DNA of 32,870 bases from a virus (lineage: Duplodnaviria > Heunggongvirae > Uroviricota > Caudoviricetes), in IMG/VR virus record IMGVR_UViG_2737471818_000001; one strand, given 5' to 3'. Within the stretch, counting starts at the first letter, position 1. The number at the start of each line of letters is the position of its first letter. A program made the translations under genes and the position numbers. Positions 5,915 through 30,477 of this stretch are shown here, piece by piece. The notes under the pieces were generated by a model. The model did no database searches. It was not told where the DNA came from and saw only the letters and a program-made list of their open reading frames with translations.

Positions 5915-7108
5915 TTAGCTGTTGACCGAGTCCGACAGGTTCGCCAGATAGGTGTCGGTGATGCGCTGGCGCAGGGTCAGGTTTTCCAGCGGCGGGACGG
6001 GGGTGTAGTCATAATCGATATACAGCTTCCCGACTTTCAGGGTCGCTGTCTCGTTTGACTCCGGGTCATACCAGCAGGAGCCGTCAACGATATACCCGTT
6101 ATTTTTCAGCTCGCGGAATTTGGCATTGATGCCCGATACAATGTCGCGAATCAGGGTCGGGGTGATGGGCTTATCCATCGCCCACGCATGCGCATCCGCC
6201 ATCGTGTCGGCCAGCACCTGCGCGGTGCGGGTGTAGTTCTCATACAGGAAAAGCGGGTCATCTGAGCAGGTGCGGTTTCCCCAAAACTTGAAACCGTCAT
6301 TGCGGATAAGCGTGGTAACACCGGCTTTGTTAAGCAGGTTGGCGTCGGTCGCGGGTTCCTGCAAATCCCACGACACCGAGGCACTGACGCCGGTGACGCC
6401 ATTCACGCCGACGTTTGACAGGGTTTTATGCCAGCCGACGGTCTGGTCAATTTTGGCACGCAGGCCGAGCGCGCGCGCCGTTGCCCAGGCTGTCGCAGTC
6501 TCATTCGCCGTGGTGTCCCATGCCAGAAAATCAGGGAAGATAACCATCAGCTCACGCTGGCTGAAATTCTCGCGGTAGTTGATGGCATCAGAAATGGTTT
6601 TACAGCCCCACGCACTGACATAGCCAAAGGCGCGCAGGCTCTGGCAGGTGGACGCGAGCGCCGTTGCCACTTCCTGCGGATCAAGACCCGGCACGCCGAG
6701 AATGCGCGGCTTCACGCCGGTGACGGTCTGCGCCGTCAGCAGCGCTTTCAGGCCGGTGTATTTGCCGTTTTCATCGGTCGTGCCGATGATGTTGGAAATA
6801 GTTTGTTTCTTCCCGGCCTCCGGGTCGTCCGGGTCTTCTGCGCCTTCGGCCACGCGCACGGCCACAATGACCGGTTTGCACTGGTCAGCGATGGCCTGCA
6901 GGGATATCGACAACGACCCCTTTTTGCCCGCCTTACCGATAGCACTTTGTACGTTAGTGATGAGCACTGGCTCATTGAGGGGAAATGTCTTTTCGTCAGC
7001 ATCGCTGGCCGTGCAGACCATGCCGATGATGGCCGTTGAGACGGTGGAAATGGTGCGCACGCCATCGTCAATTTCGATGACCTCTACGCCATGATGAAAA
7101 TCACTCAT
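5915..7108 (-). CDS. FI: Contractile tail sheath protein FI, 397 aa
   Basis: N-terminus MSDFHHGVEVIEIDDGVRTISTVSTAIIGMV and length match P2 gpFI as recalled. Confidence 0.9.
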   Translation of the reverse strand: MSDFHHGVEVIEIDDGVRTISTVSTAIIGMVCTASDADEKTFPLNEPVLITNVQSAIGKAGKKGSLSISLQAIADQCKPVIVAVRVAEGAEDPDDPEAGKKQTISNIIGTTDENGKYTGLKALLTAQTVTGVKPRILGVPGLDPQEVATALASTCQSLRAFGYVSAWGCKTISDAINYRENFSQRELMVIFPDFLAWDTTANETATAWATARALGLRAKIDQTVGWHKTLSNVGVNGVTGVSASVSWDLQEPATDANLLNKAGVTTLIRNDGFKFWGNRTCSDDPLFLYENYTRTAQVLADTMADAHAWAMDKPITPTLIRDIVSGINAKFRELKNNGYIVDGSCWYDPESNETATLKVGKLYIDYDYTPVPPLENLTLRQRITDTYLANLSDSVNS

Positions 7109-22151: not shown

Positions 22152-23264
22152 TTAACCAACCCTTGCTTTTTTATATGGACCACAACTCCAACTAAAGAAA
22201 TTCTTACCTAACTTATACCATTTATCAGAAAGCACTGGTGTTAGGTGAGGATTATATTTTTTTAAACTTCCCTTTTGTATATATTTCAATGTATTACTGA
22301 GCAAATTCTCTCCAAAACCATCATAACTTACACAAGCAGTGTTGCAGCTACAGCGTTTTGATTCGATATACTCACAATCATATTTTATATCAAGCTTCTT
22401 TAATATCGGACGCCAATATGCACCATGTTTTCGATCGAGTTCAAGGGCTGTTTTAAAATCAAAACCTTTTTTATGGTCAATGTAAAATTTTACTGATTCA
22501 TCTACGGAGCAAAGATGCTTAAAGAAAATGAGAGATTTTTCTTTTTGTTGAAATTGACTTTGACTTCTTAATACATCTTCAATTGTCGATAAAGGAACTA
22601 GAGATTCTATTTCATGTACATCTAAAATCTCAACGAAACCTGAGCGAGTGATTTGTGAGCCCAAAAAATGTGAGCAAGTACCCCCGAATGGGGCTCTAGG
22701 ATGTTTTTTGTCATTATCCACAATACAAAAAACTATCTCATTATTTTGAATTGCACGCTCGAATACATCCTTAGTACTGCCCCCACCGCCATTTAGAGCG
22801 ATAAAACCCATTTCGCAGCGAGATAAGTTAATACCTTCGGCATAATGAGCCGCTATAACTCTAAAAAAATCAGAATCCAAAGGATTTTCACATACTATTT
22901 TCGTTTTTTGCAATTGTGCCGAGTCATTAAAATACAATGGACCACAAACAAATTTAAAAGATTCACCGTTCTGAACCCATCTAAATGATTTATCACTAAT
23001 ATTAAAGTCGACAGATACATAAAATGAGACCTGGTTCAAGATAGCATAGTACTCTGTTAGACCCGACAAAGCCTCTTGCGCGTAACTTTTTGATGAAAGG
23101 CTATAAAGCCCGCTTTGATCATTGATAATAGTTTTAAAAAAAACCCTTGCCCCTATAACCAAGTGTTTTTGTTCAGCAAATGCCCGAAGTATATTCTCAA
23201 CCGCTATGGCAAATGAATTATTTAGCACCTTCTCAGGTGTCGCATTTTCGATATGAATCAACAT
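22152..23264 (-). CDS. Cargo protein, 370 aa, uncharacterized partner of the upstream ATPase; possible nuclease-like effector
   Basis: ATG 2 nt after the ATPase stop; low GC; hydrophobic strand followed by acidic motif IVFCIVDNDKK; glycine-rich LNGGGGST; C-terminal Cys cluster CSCNTAC...WSCGP. Confidence 0.75.
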   Translation of the reverse strand: MLIHIENATPEKVLNNSFAIAVENILRAFAEQKHLVIGARVFFKTIINDQSGLYSLSSKSYAQEALSGLTEYYAILNQVSFYVSVDFNISDKSFRWVQNGESFKFVCGPLYFNDSAQLQKTKIVCENPLDSDFFRVIAAHYAEGINLSRCEMGFIALNGGGGSTKDVFERAIQNNEIVFCIVDNDKKHPRAPFGGTCSHFLGSQITRSGFVEILDVHEIESLVPLSTIEDVLRSQSQFQQKEKSLIFFKHLCSVDESVKFYIDHKKGFDFKTALELDRKHGAYWRPILKKLDIKYDCEYIESKRCSCNTACVSYDGFGENLLSNTLKYIQKGSLKKYNPHLTPVLSDKWYKLGKNFFSWSCGPYKKARVG

Positions 23265-23266
23265 AA

Positions 23267-24823
23267 CTACTTACCAGAGAAAAAGCCAACCGGCCAATTT
23301 TGTAGGAAACCATTCTCGTCAAAATAAGATTTCTTAACTATGGTCTGCTGCTTTTCATCTTTTTCAAATACCAGTATTGAAATATCATCCTGTGAAAGAT
23401 TTTCATTTTCCTCAATATATTCACCAAGTGCTTCAATCATGGTCTGGCTATGTGTCTCAAAAATTATCTTCAAATCCACATTGTTTTCTTTTGCTTTAGT
23501 TACTACTTTTGCAAAAATACTTGCTAAATTATGTTGATATGACGGATGTAAATGCAATTCTGGCTGCTCAATGATAAATGTTATAGGTTTTCTAACCGTG
23601 GTAGCACGACGTTCTGTCTCAAGCCAAATGGCTGTAACTATCGGCAAAACCTGAGAGTAACCAAACCCCATATCACTAACATTATAGTTCTCACTATTTT
23701 CACCGGTATTTATTAAAATTGCAAAGTGAGAGCCACTTTGTTCAACCTTAATAATGAAATCAAAATTTAACTTTGTCCAATCTTCAAATTTTGATTTATC
23801 AGCCGGCCTTAATGAATTCAAAAGCATTGCAAGATTGGAACCAGTATGATCTATCTCATTAACCTGTAAATCTTGAAAGCGATAAAATCTTTCTGATGTA
23901 GCACGCAGTGGAGCTATGTACTTTACATTTCTGAATGAATCTGACAAGGATGTATTTATTATATCTATAAGATTATTAATATTCCATCCAATTATAAATG
24001 GATATAACTCATTCATTATTTCATCATGTTGAAGTTCAAAGTTTCTACTAAAAACTTTTTGTTCCTTGAATAGAAAAGCAACTAATTTACTAGCGTACGC
24101 TTTGGGTATAAAGCCAATTCTTTTGAATGCCTCTGTCACTTGATTTATATCAGATTTAGTATGGAAATATTTCTTTATATATTTCGCTGCTGAATCAATA
24201 AATGACAATTCTAATGCCCTGTCATGCCTAGAATGTCTCAAATAGAATGATGTGCTTGGAGGAGGACTATCTTCCTTACCCTTCAAAATTAGATTGGGTA
24301 TGAACTGCCCAAGATTTTTAGCTATTATCCCATCACGCTCTATTGTTTTATCATCTGATTCAATGAGTAACTTAACATTACTGTTCTCATCCATTGAAAT
24401 AAATATTGTTAAATCAGCCAATATAAGCTTAATCGTTTTTGTTTTTGTTTTTTTATCTTTAGAGTAAACAGTCAACTCTGCTTCAACATCTGTTGGTTGC
24501 TTTGCTAAATCAGTAAAACGATAATATGTATATCTTTGTGAAACCTCTGGCGGAATTGAGAGTGAAAAACTGAACGTAATTTCTTTTTTTTCAGAGTTTC
24601 GGGAAAGTACATCTGTAAAATCGCCAAAATCCACATATCGCCCATACCATAGTATTGGACCAGTAGTATTTTCTTCTACAGATTGACGAAGTAAAGGAAA
24701 TGTACGCAATAGGGAACTTTTACCACTGCTGTTCTTACCAACAAATACTGTAATTGGTTTTAAATCAATAAAAGTTTTGTTGACAAAGCTCCTGAAGTTT
24801 TGAAGACCTATACCCTTAATCAT
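23267..24823 (-). CDS. Cargo OLD/ABC-type ATPase (AAA_15/AAA_21-like), about 518 aa from the ATG at 24823
   Basis: Walker A VFVGKNSSGKSSLL; Walker B/D-loop FIIEQPELHLHPSYQ; H-loop ETHSQ; long insert between them. The track ORF extends to a TTG at 24895 that overlaps the cos-like site; the GGAG-preceded ATG at 24821-24823 is the likelier start. Confidence 0.8.
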   Translation of the reverse strand: MIKGIGLQNFRSFVNKTFIDLKPITVFVGKNSSGKSSLLRTFPLLRQSVEENTTGPILWYGRYVDFGDFTDVLSRNSEKKEITFSFSLSIPPEVSQRYTYYRFTDLAKQPTDVEAELTVYSKDKKTKTKTIKLILADLTIFISMDENSNVKLLIESDDKTIERDGIIAKNLGQFIPNLILKGKEDSPPPSTSFYLRHSRHDRALELSFIDSAAKYIKKYFHTKSDINQVTEAFKRIGFIPKAYASKLVAFLFKEQKVFSRNFELQHDEIMNELYPFIIGWNINNLIDIINTSLSDSFRNVKYIAPLRATSERFYRFQDLQVNEIDHTGSNLAMLLNSLRPADKSKFEDWTKLNFDFIIKVEQSGSHFAILINTGENSENYNVSDMGFGYSQVLPIVTAIWLETERRATTVRKPITFIIEQPELHLHPSYQHNLASIFAKVVTKAKENNVDLKIIFETHSQTMIEALGEYIEENENLSQDDISILVFEKDEKQQTIVKKSYFDENGFLQNWPVGFFSGK

Positions 24824-24894
24824 TCCTAGCTCCATTAGTTCAATAAAATCAATCGATTTTGAGACAATCTTAATATCTTTGACAGGCGCGCGCA

Positions 24895-24913
24895 ATGCTA
24901 TCCCCGCCTCGCC
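24895..24913. other. Candidate cos site (cohesive-end sequence)
   Basis: Minus-strand read GGCGAGGCGGGGATAGCAT matches the P2/186 19-nt cohesive end as recalled at about 17 of 19 positions and in the expected orientation between the A side and the Q side. Confidence 0.55.
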
Positions 24914-25195
24914 TGCACGCTTAACGGGTCGCTTTTAATGCAGTTGCATGACCACATAGGATCCGCGTCAGCTCTGGCGGCGCACGAACAGAACGGGCAT
25001 CCCCGACGCATGCAAAGCAATGCACCTGTTGCATGCACGGCTAAAAAACGGGAAATTCGCGGAAAAATGGCATAATAAAACCGGCTTTAATCGTGCCGGT
25101 TGGGGGCGGTCTCTACGGGACAGGCTAACGCCTCGCGGGGCTCGTTGTTCAACCCCGCTGGCACTGAAAACAAGTTTCAGCACCGGCTGCGTTTG

Positions 25196-25435
25196 CTAAG
25201 GTCGACGCGGTGGTGGCTTCGCCATATTTGGTCGCCGAAACGCCTCAATTTTCGGATTGCTGATATCGCTGTATTTGCGGTGATTATCCCGGACGACACC
25301 GGCACACCCGACCAGTTCGTCAGGTGTCAGATTCTCGTTAATCATAATTTGTTGCAGGCGATGCACGACGGCCATCAGCTTAATGTTTTGCGTTGAATGT
25401 ACCGGCGGCACTGGCATCATTCGCATATGACTCAT
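25196..25435 (-). CDS. Hypothetical small protein, about 79 aa from MSHMRMMPVPP
   Basis: ATG at 25433-25435 forms an ATGA overlap with the upstream gene; no recognisable motif. Confidence 0.5.
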   Translation of the reverse strand: MSHMRMMPVPPVHSTQNIKLMAVVHRLQQIMINENLTPDELVGCAGVVRDNHRKYSDISNPKIEAFRRPNMAKPPPRRP

Positions 25436-25896
25436 TTTAACCACCCATTTTTTTTAGCATATGCGACCATCTTATCGGAATATTGCCAGACACCATCATC
25501 AGCGACGTAAGCCCCACCCGAAACGCCGTTAAGCGTTTCATATCCAATAGCCAGCCCTAACGGGTGTAGAATTTCGTGATTAATTCTGAAAACAAGCCCT
25601 TTCTCGCTTAACTCTTTCCAGTTCATTAGGAACATACCGCACTGGACATCTGACATCATTAACTGAAAACTCAGCATCACATAATTTTCCACCCATTCAG
25701 CTAAATCAGTAACGTTTGTCACCCTCACTGATACACGTTTCCCGGTATATCCGTTTACCGGTTCCCATTCATGCAACCCGAGAATATCACCGCTAGAATA
25801 ATCGCGGTCATTGAGACGAAATTCAGCACGTTTTTCCCGAGATATCACCGCGTTAAAATGCTCAGGTGCAATTTTTAACTGATGGATTTTGCTCAT
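25432..25896 (-). CDS. ASCH/DUF3850-like domain protein, about 154 aa from MSKIHQLKIAPEHF, with an unassigned C-terminal extension
   Basis: N-terminal pattern H.LKI.PEHF.AV.S.EKR.EFRLNDRDY..GD recalled as typical of DUF3850; ATG at 25894-25896 overlaps the A stop by 1 nt; lower GC than A. Confidence 0.6.
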   Translation of the reverse strand: MSKIHQLKIAPEHFNAVISREKRAEFRLNDRDYSSGDILGLHEWEPVNGYTGKRVSVRVTNVTDLAEWVENYVMLSFQLMMSDVQCGMFLMNWKELSEKGLVFRINHEILHPLGLAIGYETLNGVSGGAYVADDGVWQYSDKMVAYAKKNGWLK

Positions 25897-28187
25897 TAAC
25901 TCCACTCCTTTTGCATTGAGAATCCCGGCCACTCATCAGCAGCCGCGTATTTGAATTTTTTATCGCCATAAATCACCGTTGCCCCACGCGCCAGCGCTTC
26001 AAGCTCCCACCGTTCCGGGGTAATGCCCTCCTGAGCCAAATCGAAACGAATTTTCGCTATGCGATCCCTTTCAGGTTTTGTCATCCTGGCTGATGGCGCT
26101 TGCTCGCCCGTTTTGAGTGGCTCATTGCTTCTTTGCTGGCGATTTTTGCGAGGGATGCCAGCTTTTAACGCGCCATTAAGCACCTTCATGACGTCTGGCT
26201 CATTCCAGCCGATAACCCCGCGCTCAATCAGATTTAACACCGCTGCGGCTTGCTCAGACGGTGTAGGTGTCATAACTGGAGTATCACCGCCGGTGAGCTT
26301 TCCACAGTTATTGACAGGACTCCGAGGCGCGGCAGAGCCGCTTTTTAAGGTCAAAGGCTCAACGGCCAAAATCTTTGGAACAATGCGCCATTCGGCTGTA
26401 CGGGTTACATGTATGCGGCTCGCCCCGAGGTGAGGGGCATAAATGCCGACCACTCTCTCAATATCTTCCTCATATTCGTTGACCTCATCCGTCACCTTAC
26501 GGGCGACCCTGACGGCCTGCGCATCACGCGGCATGTTTGCCCCACCCTGCGCGATGATATACAGGTCAAATTCACCTTCATCAGCAGCAGCCCGGACAGC
26601 CTCGACCCGGTCGTCAAACTCACTGGCGATACTCACGCCGCGCGGCAGCTTGCGCAGTTCGCGGTAAGCGCCCATTGTCGGCAGACCAATAGGTTTAAAC
26701 TGCGGGATGCGCCATGTAGACGCCCATGCGGTTACGGCTGCGGCGGTATCTTTCAGAGGCTTGCCGGTGTCGTGGTCGAGCTGGCCGTCGAGTGCGTAGC
26801 CGTCGATATTTTTGGCAATGTATTTAGCGATATAACCCGCCGCACCGCCCTGATTAAGATGACGTGACTCAAAGCGCTGTTTTGCCGCTCCCTTTTCGTG
26901 CCCGTCCTCTTTGAGAGCATAACGACGCATAATTTCGTTAATAGCTTTACGCTGACCGGGTTTGCAAAACATCATCATGTGCCAGTGTGGCGTCCCGTCG
27001 TGGTGCGGTTCGACAACACGCATCCCATAAACCTCTAAATCGTTATCTTTGAAAGCGGTGCGTATCAGGCTCCAGATTCGGCACAGATAGCGCTGGCCGT
27101 CTTTTGGGGTAAATGCGGTTTCATTCCAGCCATGATTGAGCTGCACAGTTTTGTTTTCACCTTTGCCGACCTGTCGGGTCGGGTGATACTTCGATGGCGT
27201 GGTCAGCGTGATAAACATCCCCACATCACCAACGCTGGCCGCGTAGCGTTCAATCCCGGCGATAGTGTTCATCAGTTCCATACGACGTATTTCAGGGTTA
27301 GAAATACTCCCCATTACCTTACTGATGAGGTCAATACGTTCACCGGTGACTTTGTTTTCCAGCTCGCAGGATTTCAGGTATTCGAGATTAGCCAAGCGGC
27401 GCGCGTGCACATCGCGGATCGCCATTTTGCTTGCGTAAGGTGAGCGGTCTTTGTTGACCTCACCAGCCGCAATAAGCAGCGCCTCGCGCCAGCGCATCCG
27501 CTGCGCCTTGAGCTGGCTGACCCACCACTCATCTTTTATCAGACGGGAAATAGCAGAAAATGCCATGCGGATCGTCATCTGACCCTTACGGTATTTTTTC
27601 CAGTACATCGGGGTGAAGTTAAAAGCGCGAGCAATACCTGCCACCTGACCGTATAAATGCGCCTGCGCCTCATCGGTGAATAAAGTTTCTTTCCCGCCGT
27701 GCGCCTCCTCCCATGCGTCGCTTAACTCCTCGTATTTGCTCCAGAGTTGTGACGCTATTCTGGCCGCAAATTTCTTAAGCTCTTTGTCATTCATATCAGG
27801 CAGGCGCGTATATTCATCACGCTCAGACAGAAAGCCGCGCGAGACAGAATCATTCATCCCGCACAGCTCGTTAACACGTTCAAGTCGGGGTAACAGTTTC
27901 CGCTCAAAAGTGTTTCTTAGGAAATACAGCCCATCGAGAGGGCTTTTGCTTCGTCTAATGAAGTTATAACGAGAGTTAAACAGTGTTTTCAGGAAAAAAG
28001 GGAGGCGGTCGATTCGATATAAAACACCTTGCACCTGACGGAATTCGGCACGTGTAAGGGGTCTGTCACGACCGATGGCCGCTTGAGGGGCATTCCATGA
28101 GTAAGCGCCGACGAACGTGTCGCCGGTGCGCTTAGATATTTTTGGCAGTAACGAAGAGGCAACTTGCCCCCGAGATTCAACGGCCAT
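25896..28187 (-). CDS. A: Replication initiation protein A (rolling-circle nickase), about 763 aa from MAVESRGQVA
   Basis: Strong similarity to P2 gpA as recalled, including ...VVEPHHDGTPHWHMMMFC... and ...LNQGGAAGYIAKYIAKNIDGY...; ATG at 28185-28187. Confidence 0.9.
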   Translation of the reverse strand: MAVESRGQVASSLLPKISKRTGDTFVGAYSWNAPQAAIGRDRPLTRAEFRQVQGVLYRIDRLPFFLKTLFNSRYNFIRRSKSPLDGLYFLRNTFERKLLPRLERVNELCGMNDSVSRGFLSERDEYTRLPDMNDKELKKFAARIASQLWSKYEELSDAWEEAHGGKETLFTDEAQAHLYGQVAGIARAFNFTPMYWKKYRKGQMTIRMAFSAISRLIKDEWWVSQLKAQRMRWREALLIAAGEVNKDRSPYASKMAIRDVHARRLANLEYLKSCELENKVTGERIDLISKVMGSISNPEIRRMELMNTIAGIERYAASVGDVGMFITLTTPSKYHPTRQVGKGENKTVQLNHGWNETAFTPKDGQRYLCRIWSLIRTAFKDNDLEVYGMRVVEPHHDGTPHWHMMMFCKPGQRKAINEIMRRYALKEDGHEKGAAKQRFESRHLNQGGAAGYIAKYIAKNIDGYALDGQLDHDTGKPLKDTAAAVTAWASTWRIPQFKPIGLPTMGAYRELRKLPRGVSIASEFDDRVEAVRAAADEGEFDLYIIAQGGANMPRDAQAVRVARKVTDEVNEYEEDIERVVGIYAPHLGASRIHVTRTAEWRIVPKILAVEPLTLKSGSAAPRSPVNNCGKLTGGDTPVMTPTPSEQAAAVLNLIERGVIGWNEPDVMKVLNGALKAGIPRKNRQQRSNEPLKTGEQAPSARMTKPERDRIAKIRFDLAQEGITPERWELEALARGATVIYGDKKFKYAAADEWPGFSMQKEWS

Positions 28188-30413: not shown

Positions 30414-30477
30414 TTCTCCCCCCTTATGCCGACTGGTCAGCTAGCCATTCACCAACTGAGCGATGTATTTCAACCGG

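What the first reader, a model, noticed from the sequence alone, without database searches (positions are those of the whole stretch)
25196..25896. ASCH/DUF3850-like protein plus a translationally coupled small ORF occupy the A-to-cos interval where P2 carries tin and old
Immediately after replication gene A (1-nt stop/start overlap) comes a 154-aa protein whose N-terminus fits the DUF3850/ASCH pattern (HQLKIAPEHFNAVISREKRAEFRLNDRDY...GD) with an unassigned C-terminal half, followed by a 79-aa ORF in an ATGA overlap. The first gene has lower GC than A. ASCH-like domains are PUA-like nucleic-acid-binding folds. The slot is a known accessory position in P2-like phages, so this pair could be a second defence or anti-defence module in the same hotspot.
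Basis: partly seen in the sequence, partly recalled or inferred. Interest (0 to 1): 0.5.

Follow-up and report, generated by a model that had tools for sequence, protein, structure and literature searches.

The report
P2 orf91 homolog plus small partner
The two small genes after replication gene A are the full-length form of phage P2's long-annotated but uncharacterised orf91 and a conserved little neighbour, so they are optional tail-end genes of the phage's early replication operon and not a new defence cassette.

Summary

The gene is the ortholog of P2 orf91, which sits in the same place in P2, Wphi and L-413C. Reference P2 keeps only the N-domain, because the tin/old insertion replaced the rest and removed the small gene.

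Neither gene matches any PADLOC defence model. No promoter-like site separates them from A. A homolog of the phage 186 terminator t95b follows them, then cos (24895-24913). The real AT-rich cargo lies beyond cos, next to the portal gene, and is swapped in relatives that keep A, orf91 and the small gene at 97.5% identity.

The pair is not universal backbone either. At least part of it is found in about a quarter of E. coli genomes carrying this type of gene A.

Function is untested. The likeliest role is a dispensable early lytic accessory that binds nucleic acid. One new lead: distant relatives of the small protein carry a ClpX-type zinc finger.

The parts
25896..28187 (-). Replication gene A (rolling-circle nickase, Phage_GPA). 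Its TAA stop at 25898..25896 overlaps the next gene's ATG by 1 nt.
   Evidence: Pfam Phage_GPA E 1.8e-111. 76% amino-acid identity to P2 gpA. RefSeq annotates it as 'replication endonuclease' with this start.
25432..25896 (-). orf91-like gene, 154 aa: a two-domain DUF3850 (ASCH-like) plus DUF7415 protein, ortholog of P2 Orf91 in its full-length form.
   Evidence: It is 54-56% identical over 99% of its length to the gene directly after A in P2-like phages L-413C, P37, 12474, 9W and a second 'Peduovirus P2' genome record (OU784549/NC_070904, distinct from reference NC_001895). AF2 mean pLDDT is 81.
25666..25887 (-). N-terminal domain, residues 4-77: DUF3850, a PUA/ASCH-like beta-barrel.
25435..25632 (-). 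C-terminal domain, about residues 89-154: DUF7415, a small alpha/beta domain that mostly occurs as a stand-alone 57-110 aa phage or prophage protein.
   Evidence: Pfam E 1.7e-11. pLDDT is 88-95, and a disordered linker (residues 83-88) separates it from the N-domain. 448 homologous clusters, mostly single-domain. No PDB relative by sequence.
25196..25435 (-). Small gene, 79 aa (76 aa in RefSeq). The prediction is a two-helix hairpin (residues 15-33 and 38-58) with disordered ends and a conserved PPRR(P) C-terminus.
   Evidence: phrog_11386 E 7.8e-29. Homologs include PSP3 gp37 and Wphi gp92, plus unannotated ORFs in many P2-like phages. 116 clusters, all Enterobacterales. Alignment core is KLMAxVHRLQQIMxNENLTPDELVGCA. 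AF2 model. dN/dS about 0.1.
25124..25197 (-). Conserved 74-nt hairpin element that begins inside the small gene's stop codon. It marks the inner edge of the variable region in many P2- and 186-type phages.
   Evidence: Present at 81-100% identity after different upstream genes in 15 loci. 15-bp consensus stem, with only one compensatory pair. No Rfam match.
25071..25101 (-). Terminator-like hairpin (AACCGGC-9 nt-GCCGGTT followed by TTATTATG), homologous to the annotated phage 186 terminator t95b. It is the probable end of the early transcript.
   Evidence: Alignment with the right end of 186. 186 annotates t95b at 30436-30463. Predicted fold of the region has z -2.9. The simple terminator scan missed it because its loop is 9 nt.
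24895..24913 (-). cos cohesive-end sequence GGCGAGGCGGGGATAGCAT (P2: GGCGAGGCGGGGAAAGCAC).
   Evidence: Homology with related E. coli prophages breaks at about 24889.
22152..24823 (-). Context, not part of the pair: the real hotspot cargo. It is an AT-rich (33-35% GC) AAA_15/DUF3696 ATPase (23267-24823) plus a 370-aa protein with no family match (22152-23264), lying between cos and the portal gene.
   Evidence: Pfam and PADLOC hits for the ATPase. GC content. Replaced by a GmrSD-domain cassette in E. coli OkiPb01676.

Best explanation
The pair is the full-length P2 orf91 gene (DUF3850/ASCH-like domain fused to DUF7415) and the small conserved gene that normally follows it. They are the last two cistrons of the early (Pe) replication operon. 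Ribosomes finishing gene A reinitiate on them (TAATG, then ATGA), and the transcript ends at the t95b-type terminator just before cos.

They are therefore made during lytic growth together with the rolling-circle nickase gpA, and not from the resting prophage. That the early operon is silent in the lysogen rests on published P2 biology and was not measured here.

Inferred mechanism: the ASCH-like beta-barrel binds a nucleic-acid or nucleotide ligand. DUF7415 is a separable second module. The small helical protein acts on its own and is not an obligate partner. Together they give a dispensable benefit to replication or early gene expression.

They are optional. Recombination that swaps hotspot cargo often erodes or deletes them, as in reference P2 itself.

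Confidence by step: identity and operon membership about 0.9; not defence cargo about 0.85; nucleic-acid binding or replication-linked role about 0.4.
For: - Orthology and position: 54-56% identity over the full length to the gene directly after A in P2-like phages. Wphi has gp91/gp92, and reference P2 Orf91 is the N-domain only.
- Coupling: overlapping stop and start codons, with an AAGGAG Shine-Dalgarno motif 8 nt before the orf91 ATG.
- No promoter-like site in 24700-26100.
- The downstream hairpin is homologous to the 186 terminator t95b.
- Linkage to A rather than to cargo: relatives share A, orf91, the small gene and the cos flank at 97.5% identity but have different cargo beyond cos.
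- In 186-like phage Midge a DUF3850-only gene overlaps the start of A instead. The same upstream position is seen in L069, L070, L075 and L161.
- DUF7415 follows gpA in Vibrio phage yong1 and in L060.
- Purifying selection on both genes.
- Dispensability: reference P2 lacks the C-domain and the small gene.
- No defence-model hits. A survey of 1511 P2-like prophages with anti-defence models found only Anti_RM and Anti_CRISPR, in 28 elements (PMC13586616).
Against: - No experiment addresses the function of DUF3850, DUF7415 or the small protein. There is no literature on DUF7415.
- The pair is missing from most gpA loci sampled, so it cannot be needed for replication as such.
- orf91 changes at amino-acid level about twice as fast as A (dN 0.36 against 0.16 compared with P2-type genes) and has lower GC. 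Both are also typical of host-interaction genes.
- The promoter scan covers only sigma-70-type consensus sites, so a weak or unusual internal promoter is not excluded.
- Transcription and termination were not measured.
Confidence: 0.6

Rival explanations
1. Counter-defence module. The early-expressed ASCH-like protein binds, sequesters or hydrolyses a modified nucleotide or nucleic acid used by a host immune system. The small protein neutralises a second host factor. Both help the phage only on hosts that carry the matching defence.
For: - Early expression coupled to A.
- Patchy presence among close relatives.
- Faster protein evolution and lower GC than A.
- Both domains are shuffled and widespread in unrelated virulent phages: T4-like, T5-like, T1-like and Enterococcus and Listeria phages.
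- ASCH/PUA-fold relatives recognise modified bases or nucleosides, for example YqfB and YTH and BapA (bioRxiv 10.64898/2026.02.25.707755).
- Dispensable in the laboratory, as in reference P2.
Against: - No similarity to any characterised anti-defence protein.
- The 'anti-CBASS Acb1' label on a DUF7415 protein of phage Roth27 has no support: a DUF7415 profile finds no PDB chain at all, so none of any solved Acb1 structure the PDB copy holds.
- DefenseFinder anti-defence models found almost nothing in P2-like prophages.
- The persistent position next to A on either side in two phage genera suggests a replication link.
Confidence: 0.22
2. Second defence or superinfection-exclusion cassette of the hotspot, expressed from the prophage to block other phages.
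For: - The A-to-portal interval is a documented defence hotspot (PMC9122126).
- Phage 186 orf97 in the equivalent interval blocks 186 infection when expressed from a plasmid (record annotation).
- Rousset et al. cloned 'old-tin-orf91' as one construct that protected broadly, but orf91 was not tested on its own.
Against: - No PADLOC hit for either protein.
- No promoter-like site, and translational coupling to the lytic gene A.
- Same orientation and operon as A, unlike old and tin, which have their own promoter on the other strand.
- The pair stays with A when the cargo changes.
- GC is only moderately low (43-51%) against 33-35% for the real cargo.
Confidence: 0.06
3. Toxin-antitoxin-like pair: two small overlapping genes that depend on each other.
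For: Two small genes with a 4-nt overlap.
Against: Each gene occurs without the other.
- The small gene is found alone in L097, L105, L106, L107, L110 and L149, and in about a fifth of the sampled E. coli matches.
- The orf91 N-domain is found alone in reference P2 and L124.
- Distant relatives of the small gene sit after other genes, while DUF3850 lies upstream of A in the same operon.
- Neither protein matches a toxin or antitoxin family.
Confidence: 0.02

Closest known systems
Bacteriophage P2 Orf91 (NP_046796; UniProt YO91_BPP2, 'uncharacterized 12.9 kDa protein in GpA 3' region') and its full-length versions in L-413C, P37, vB_EcoM-12474 and 9W; Wphi gp91
   Same: Same position directly after A with overlapping stop and start codons. 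Same DUF3850 N-domain. The full-length versions have the same DUF7415 C-domain and are followed by the same small gene.
   Different: Only 54-56% identical, while A is 76% identical. Reference P2 and Wphi carry truncated forms. In this phage the interval up to cos holds nothing else, and the cargo lies on the other side of cos.
PDB 3IUW, Enterococcus faecalis 'activating signal cointegrator' (DUF3850, structural-genomics entry), and the wider ASCH/PUA-like fold (PH0355, E. coli YqfB ac4C amidohydrolase, Zymomonas ZmASCH, YTH domains)
   Different: The domain is much smaller (about 80 aa) than the characterised enzymes. By my reading of the sequence against remembered YqfB numbering, a Glu stands where YqfB has its catalytic Thr, so amidohydrolase activity cannot be assumed. 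No activity is known for any DUF3850 protein.
Stand-alone DUF7415 proteins of T4-like, T5-like and other phages and prophages
   Same: Same domain with conserved R-I-N-x-E-x-L-H-P-L-G-L-A. It is also found right after gpA in Vibrio P2-like phage yong1.
   Different: Here it is fused to DUF3850. Elsewhere it is alone or fused to other N-terminal parts. Its function is unknown everywhere.
PSP3 gp37, Wphi gp92 and phrog_11386 small proteins, plus the longer relatives with a ClpX-type zinc finger
   Same: Same helical core. Same place: the last rightward gene between A and cos or portal.
   Different: The window protein ends in a short PPRRP tail. Distant relatives (101-122 aa) end in a PF06689 ClpX C4 zinc finger instead.
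P2 tin/old and other cargo of the gpA-gpQ hotspot (Rousset et al. 2022, PMC9122126)
   Same: Lies in the same gpA-to-gpQ interval, which that study treats as one hotspot. Its supplement lists 'DUF3850/ASCH + hypothetical ...' arrangements.
   Different: The pair has no promoter of its own, is co-oriented and coupled with A, is not swapped along with the cargo, and matches no defence model.

Membership tests
Pfam DUF3850 (PF12961), ASCH/PUA-like superfamily | Profile match above the curated gathering score | tested here: met
   65.6 bits against a cut-off of 22.9, E 4.7e-18, residues 4-77 covering the whole profile. The general ASCH model PF04266 is just below its cut-off (20.3 against 21.2).
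Pfam DUF3850 (PF12961), ASCH/PUA-like superfamily | PUA-like beta-barrel fold | tested here: met
Pfam DUF3850 (PF12961), ASCH/PUA-like superfamily | Binding of RNA, DNA or a nucleoside, or catalysis | not testable with these tools
   No DUF3850 protein has been studied biochemically. The ParB-DUF3850 fusions in PMC12704722 were tested only for NTP binding by the ParB part.
Pfam DUF7415 (PF24187) | Profile match above the gathering score | tested here: met
   44.6 bits against a cut-off of 27, E 1.7e-11, residues 91-132. The conserved core is shared with stand-alone members.
P2 Orf91 orthologs | Gene directly 3' of gene A in the same orientation, with start overlapping or abutting the A stop | tested here: met
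   TAATG overlap here. The same arrangement is seen in P2, 9W, VB-YPM-4 and Wphi.
P2 Orf91 orthologs | Full-length sequence similarity to Orf91 of P2-like phages | tested here: met
   54-56% identity over 99% of the protein, E about 1e-49. Alignment.
Known anti-phage defence systems (PADLOC-DB 2.0) | Match to a model of a known or candidate defence protein | tested here: not met
   No family at E 0.01 or better for either protein, while the neighbouring ATPase matches 98 models.
Swappable cargo of the gpA-gpQ hotspot | Replaced together with the variable cassette between otherwise near-identical phages | tested here: not met
   OkiPb01676 and its relatives, and KV7, keep A, the pair and the cos flank at 94-97.5% identity while the cassette beyond cos differs.
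Swappable cargo of the gpA-gpQ hotspot | Presence or absence varies among related phages | tested here: met
   At least part of the pair is found in 457 E. coli genomes, against 1767 with this type of A. DUF3850 lies directly after A in 3 of about 150 usable gpA loci, and the small gene is in 11.
Universal P2-like backbone | Present in essentially all P2-like phages | tested here: not met
   Same counts as above. In most loci the cargo starts 50-250 bp after the A stop.
Toxin-antitoxin pair | The two genes always co-occur | tested here: not met
   Either gene occurs without the other.
ClpX-type zinc-finger proteins (PF06689) | C4 zinc-finger domain present | tested here: not met
   The window's small protein has a single Cys and no Pfam hit. 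Only distant relatives (P0278, P0280, P0282-P0284, P0287) carry the domain.
Zincin metalloprotease (HExxH) | Invariant HExxH motif | tested here: not met
   H107-E-x-x-H111 is present here, but the first His is Arg or Thr in Roth27, yong1 and L060.

The most novel reading that the evidence does not exclude
The two genes are host-takeover or counter-defence factors of P2-like phages with new mechanisms.

The small helical protein would hook a target to, or block, the host ClpX unfoldase. In distant relatives this would work through a ClpX-like zinc finger, and here through its conserved basic PPRRP tail.

The DUF3850-DUF7415 protein would bind or destroy a modified nucleotide or nucleic acid that a host immune system depends on.
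Probability: 0.15. Interest if true: 0.6.

Novelty: already known. Interest (0 to 1): 0.3.

Why it matters
This matters mainly for interpreting the hotspot.
- Surveys that treat everything between gpA and gpQ as defence cargo include orf91-type and small-gene families. These belong to the early operon and should be set aside.
- In this phage lineage the cargo sits on the portal side of cos, so the hotspot has two insertion sites flanking cos.

Orf91 has been an unexplained open reading frame in a model phage since the P2 genome was annotated. This work shows three things about it.
- Its full-length form has two domains.
- It stays next to gene A on one side or the other in two phage genera.
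- Relatives of its small neighbour carry a ClpX-type zinc finger.

These points give concrete, cheap experiments. None of them is a surprise to a specialist yet.

Tried and rejected
- **HExxH metalloprotease motif in the C-domain.** Rejected, because the first His is not conserved in distant members.
- **Acb1 (anti-CBASS).** One phage record gives a DUF7415 protein this name. Neither the protein nor the DUF7415 profile matches any solved structure by sequence.
- **Small protein related to 186 Tum, Midge's 60-aa protein or yong1's 68-aa protein.** hhalign gives no signal.
- **Rfam families in 24700-26100.** None.
- **MazG-like appearance of the N-terminal part of the L060 DUF7415 protein.** This was only my impression; Pfam finds nothing there.
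- **Iterated HMMs to find more diverged copies in the 160 gpA loci.**
- **Toxin-antitoxin reading.** Rejected on co-occurrence.
- **Literature.** The classical papers on the P2 tin-old region (Odegrip 2006, Nilsson 2004) are not in the searchable library.

Full report
**What is in the sequence.** Everything lies on the minus strand.
- Gene A (Pfam Phage_GPA, E 1.8e-111) ends with TAA at 25898..25896.
- A 154-aa ORF starts with ATG at 25896..25894, so stop and start share one base (TAATG). An AAGGAG motif lies 8 nt upstream.
- That ORF ends with TGA at 25434..25432. The ATG of a 79-aa ORF is at 25435..25433 (ATGA overlap), and this ORF ends with TAG at 25198..25196.
- RefSeq annotates both genes in the identical prophage of E. 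coli EC11. It starts the small one 9 nt later. A 97.5%-identical relative is annotated with the 4-nt overlap.

**Are these real genes?** Yes.
- The 154-aa protein matches phrog_1812 over its full length (E 1e-49). The small one matches phrog_11386 (E 8e-29).
- The small protein has 116 homologous clusters, all in Enterobacterales and all unnamed. The core KLMAxVHRLQQIMxNENLTPDELVGCA is almost invariant.
- dN/dS is 0.17 for the 154-aa gene, 0.08-0.11 for the small gene and 0.09-0.12 for A.

**Domains of the 154-aa protein.**
- Residues 4-77 are Pfam DUF3850 (65.6 bits, cut-off 22.9).
- The AlphaFold2 model (mean pLDDT 81) shows a beta-barrel, a disordered linker at 83-88 and a compact alpha/beta C-domain with pLDDT 88-95.
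- DUF7415 is mostly a stand-alone protein of 57-110 aa in prophages and in T4-like, T5-like and other phages (448 clusters).
- An HExxH motif in the window protein is not conserved in distant members, so it is not a zincin site.
- One phage record labels a DUF7415 protein as anti-CBASS Acb1, but nothing supports this.

**What gene is it?** It is P2 orf91.
- tblastn finds the protein at 54-56% identity over 99% of its length directly after gene A in L-413C (orf91), P37, vB_EcoM-12474, 9W (annotated 'Orf91 protein'), Wphi (gp91/gp92) and a second 'Peduovirus P2' genome record (OU784549/NC_070904, distinct from reference NC_001895).
- The reference P2 genome has Orf91 (109 aa, 'DUF3850 domain-containing protein') in the same place. 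Its sequence departs from the full-length forms after residue ~77, at the domain boundary, and tin follows on the opposite strand.
- So the tin/old insertion replaced the C-domain and the small gene. The same break point, with different cargo behind it, is seen in locus L124.
- The small gene is homologous to PSP3 gp37 and Wphi gp92, and to ORFs (often unannotated) after orf91 in many P2-like phages.
- Rousset et al. already record the DUF3850/ASCH assignment of P2 orf91. Their supplement lists 'DUF3850/ASCH + hypothetical ...' arrangements, and they cloned 'old-tin-orf91' as one construct.

**Where the interval ends.**
- The cos sequence GGCGAGGCGGGGATAGCAT lies at 24895-24913 (P2: GGCGAGGCGGGGAAAGCAC).
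- The roughly 290 bp between the small gene and cos are about 90% identical to the right end of phage 186. This stretch folds into three hairpins (z -2.9).
- The first hairpin is a 74-nt element (25124-25197) that begins in the small gene's stop codon. It recurs after quite different upstream genes in P2- and 186-type phages.
- The third hairpin (25071-25101) is the homolog of the annotated 186 terminator t95b.
- No sigma-70-like promoter is found anywhere in 24700-26100.
- The A-to-cos interval of this phage therefore holds only orf91, the small gene and the terminator/cos flank.

**The real cargo lies beyond cos.**
- The AT-rich genes (33-35% GC, GC3 about 26%) are an AAA_15/DUF3696 ATPase with many PADLOC matches and a 370-aa protein with none. 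They lie between cos and the portal gene.
- Among 98 gpA loci with a recognisable cos, 73 have cos about 185 bp from the portal gene, as in P2. The other 25 have more than 500 bp there, as in this window.

**Cargo or backbone?** Neither, strictly.
- In complete E. coli genomes the core of this type of A is found in 1767 of 5426 genomes (2101 places).
- The pair, or part of it, is found in 457 genomes. In an evenly spaced sample of rows, roughly four fifths of those have both genes and the rest only the small one. This is a lower bound, because blastn misses diverged alleles.
- I also fetched 160 gpA loci from other species and from viral contigs. Iterated HMMs found DUF3850 directly after A in only three (L087, L124, L144), DUF7415 after A in four, and the small gene in eleven. 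In most loci the variable genes begin 50-250 bp after the A stop.
- The pair is therefore clearly not universal.
- It does not move with the cargo either. Homology between this window and E. coli OkiPb01676, its relatives and KV7 runs at 94-97.5% through A, orf91, the small gene and the cos flank. It stops at about 24889, at the edge of the cos sequence, and a GmrSD-domain cassette replaces the ATPase cassette.
- Loci such as L089, L109 and L148 keep the 74-nt element about 200 bp after A with no pair in between. The pair therefore behaves as a discrete optional insert between the A stop and that element.

**Links to gene A elsewhere.**
- In 186-like phage Midge, a DUF3850-only gene sits immediately upstream of A and overlaps its start. 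Its annotators note the similarity to P2 ORF91.
- The same upstream position is found in L069, L070, L075 and L161 and in L172.
- DUF7415, with other partner sequences, directly follows gpA in Vibrio P2-like phage yong1 and in L060.
- Both domains thus recur next to the rolling-circle nickase gene. This is the main reason I lean towards a replication-linked role over a counter-defence role, though only weakly.

**The small protein.**
- AlphaFold2 predicts a two-helix hairpin with disordered ends (pLDDT 72). It has no fold or sequence relative in the PDB.
- A profile search of 1.84 billion representative proteins finds only 30 relatives.
- Six of the more distant ones (101-122 aa) end in a ClpX-type C4 zinc finger (PF06689, E down to 6e-19) where the window protein has its PPRRP tail.
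- Two of these were located. Both lie after gpA and before the portal gene in P2/186-like prophages.
- This is the only functional lead for the small gene. It suggests a connection to ClpX or to partners of its N-terminal domain, and it is untested.
- The small gene and orf91 occur independently of each other, so they are not a toxin-antitoxin pair or an obligate two-part system.

**Mechanism.**
- Shown: gene identity, domain folds, coupling to A, absence of promoter-like sites, the homologous terminator, linkage to A rather than to cargo, purifying selection, and dispensability in reference P2.
- Inferred: expression only in the lytic cycle (from published knowledge that Pe is repressed in lysogens), nucleic-acid or nucleotide binding by the ASCH-like domain (from the fold family), and a supportive role in replication or early expression.
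- The rival counter-defence reading fits the patchiness, the faster evolution (dN 0.36 against 0.16 for A compared with P2-type genes), the lower GC and the spread of both domains in virulent phages. It has no positive evidence. Anti-defence models found almost nothing in 1511 P2-like prophages.
- A defence role for the lysogen is the least likely. There are no PADLOC hits and no separate promoter, and the orientation and coupling are those of a lytic gene.

**Verdict.** The ASCH/DUF3850 call is right, and the C-terminal half is DUF7415. The interpretation as a second defence or anti-defence module occupying the tin/old slot is not supported. This is the long-annotated but uncharacterised P2 orf91 in its full-length form, with its usual small neighbour. 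Both are optional genes at the end of the early operon. It is ordinary as a finding, with modest interest for hotspot bookkeeping and one new lead, the ClpX-type zinc finger in relatives of the small protein.

Noticed in passing
window 24895-24913 (cos) and 22152-24823: The cos site lies between the small gene and the AT-rich cassette, so the cargo sits between cos and the portal gene, at the left end of the packaged DNA. The cargo is an AAA_15/DUF3696 ATPase (with PADLOC NsnB, PDC-M55A and HEC-03B matches) plus a 370-aa protein with no family match. In 98 gpA loci with a recognisable cos, 25 have more than 500 bp on the portal side and 73 have the P2 arrangement. The gpA-gpQ hotspot therefore has two insertion sites flanking cos.
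   Followed up: partly
window 25124-25197, minus strand: A conserved 74-nt hairpin element begins in the small gene's stop codon. It is found at 81-100% identity after different genes (the small gene, DinI-like genes, 186 orf97, or A itself) in P2- and 186-type phages. The consensus stem is 15 bp, only one pair shows compensatory change, and there is no Rfam match. It could be an RNA structure, a protein-binding site or a recombination landmark at the inner edge of the variable region.
   Followed up: partly
P0278, P0280, P0282, P0283, P0284, P0287; L172:6001-6369; L173:6001-6345: Distant relatives of the small protein carry a C-terminal ClpX-type C4 zinc finger (PF06689, E down to 6e-19). They occupy the same place after gpA in other P2/186-like prophages.
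   Followed up: partly
L005:4317-4646 (reference P2) and L124 (about 6823-7060): Reference P2 and an unrelated viral contig share the same break inside orf91, at nt ~222-234 on the boundary between the two domains, with different cargo behind it. This suggests a recurrent recombination point.
   Followed up: partly
L171:3501-3782 (phage Midge); L069, L070, L075, L161; L172:1332-1592: In 186-like phages a DUF3850-only gene lies upstream of gene A. It overlaps the A start in Midge, in the slot where 186 has orf84. In L172 a PAPS-reductase-like gene lies between DUF3850 and A.
   Followed up: partly
L021:8269-8463 and 56 other gpA loci: An unrelated protein family of about 64 aa (for example MHLPAVEDVVILERIELIARLG...) is the commonest first gene after A in the sampled loci, at a median of 115 nt after the A stop. 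It has no Pfam match.
   Followed up: no
L167:2501-2758 (Klebsiella phage Roth27): An 85-aa DUF7415 protein is annotated 'anti-CBASS protein acb1' and sits next to a Nudix hydrolase gene. The name has no support from sequence comparison with solved structures and looks like an annotation error.
   Followed up: partly
window 24824-24895: The mechanical ORF list extends the ATPase to a TTG at 24895, which would run into cos. The RefSeq start (MIKGIGLQNF, 24823) matches the start of the AAA_15 profile and is the likely true start.
   Followed up: yes
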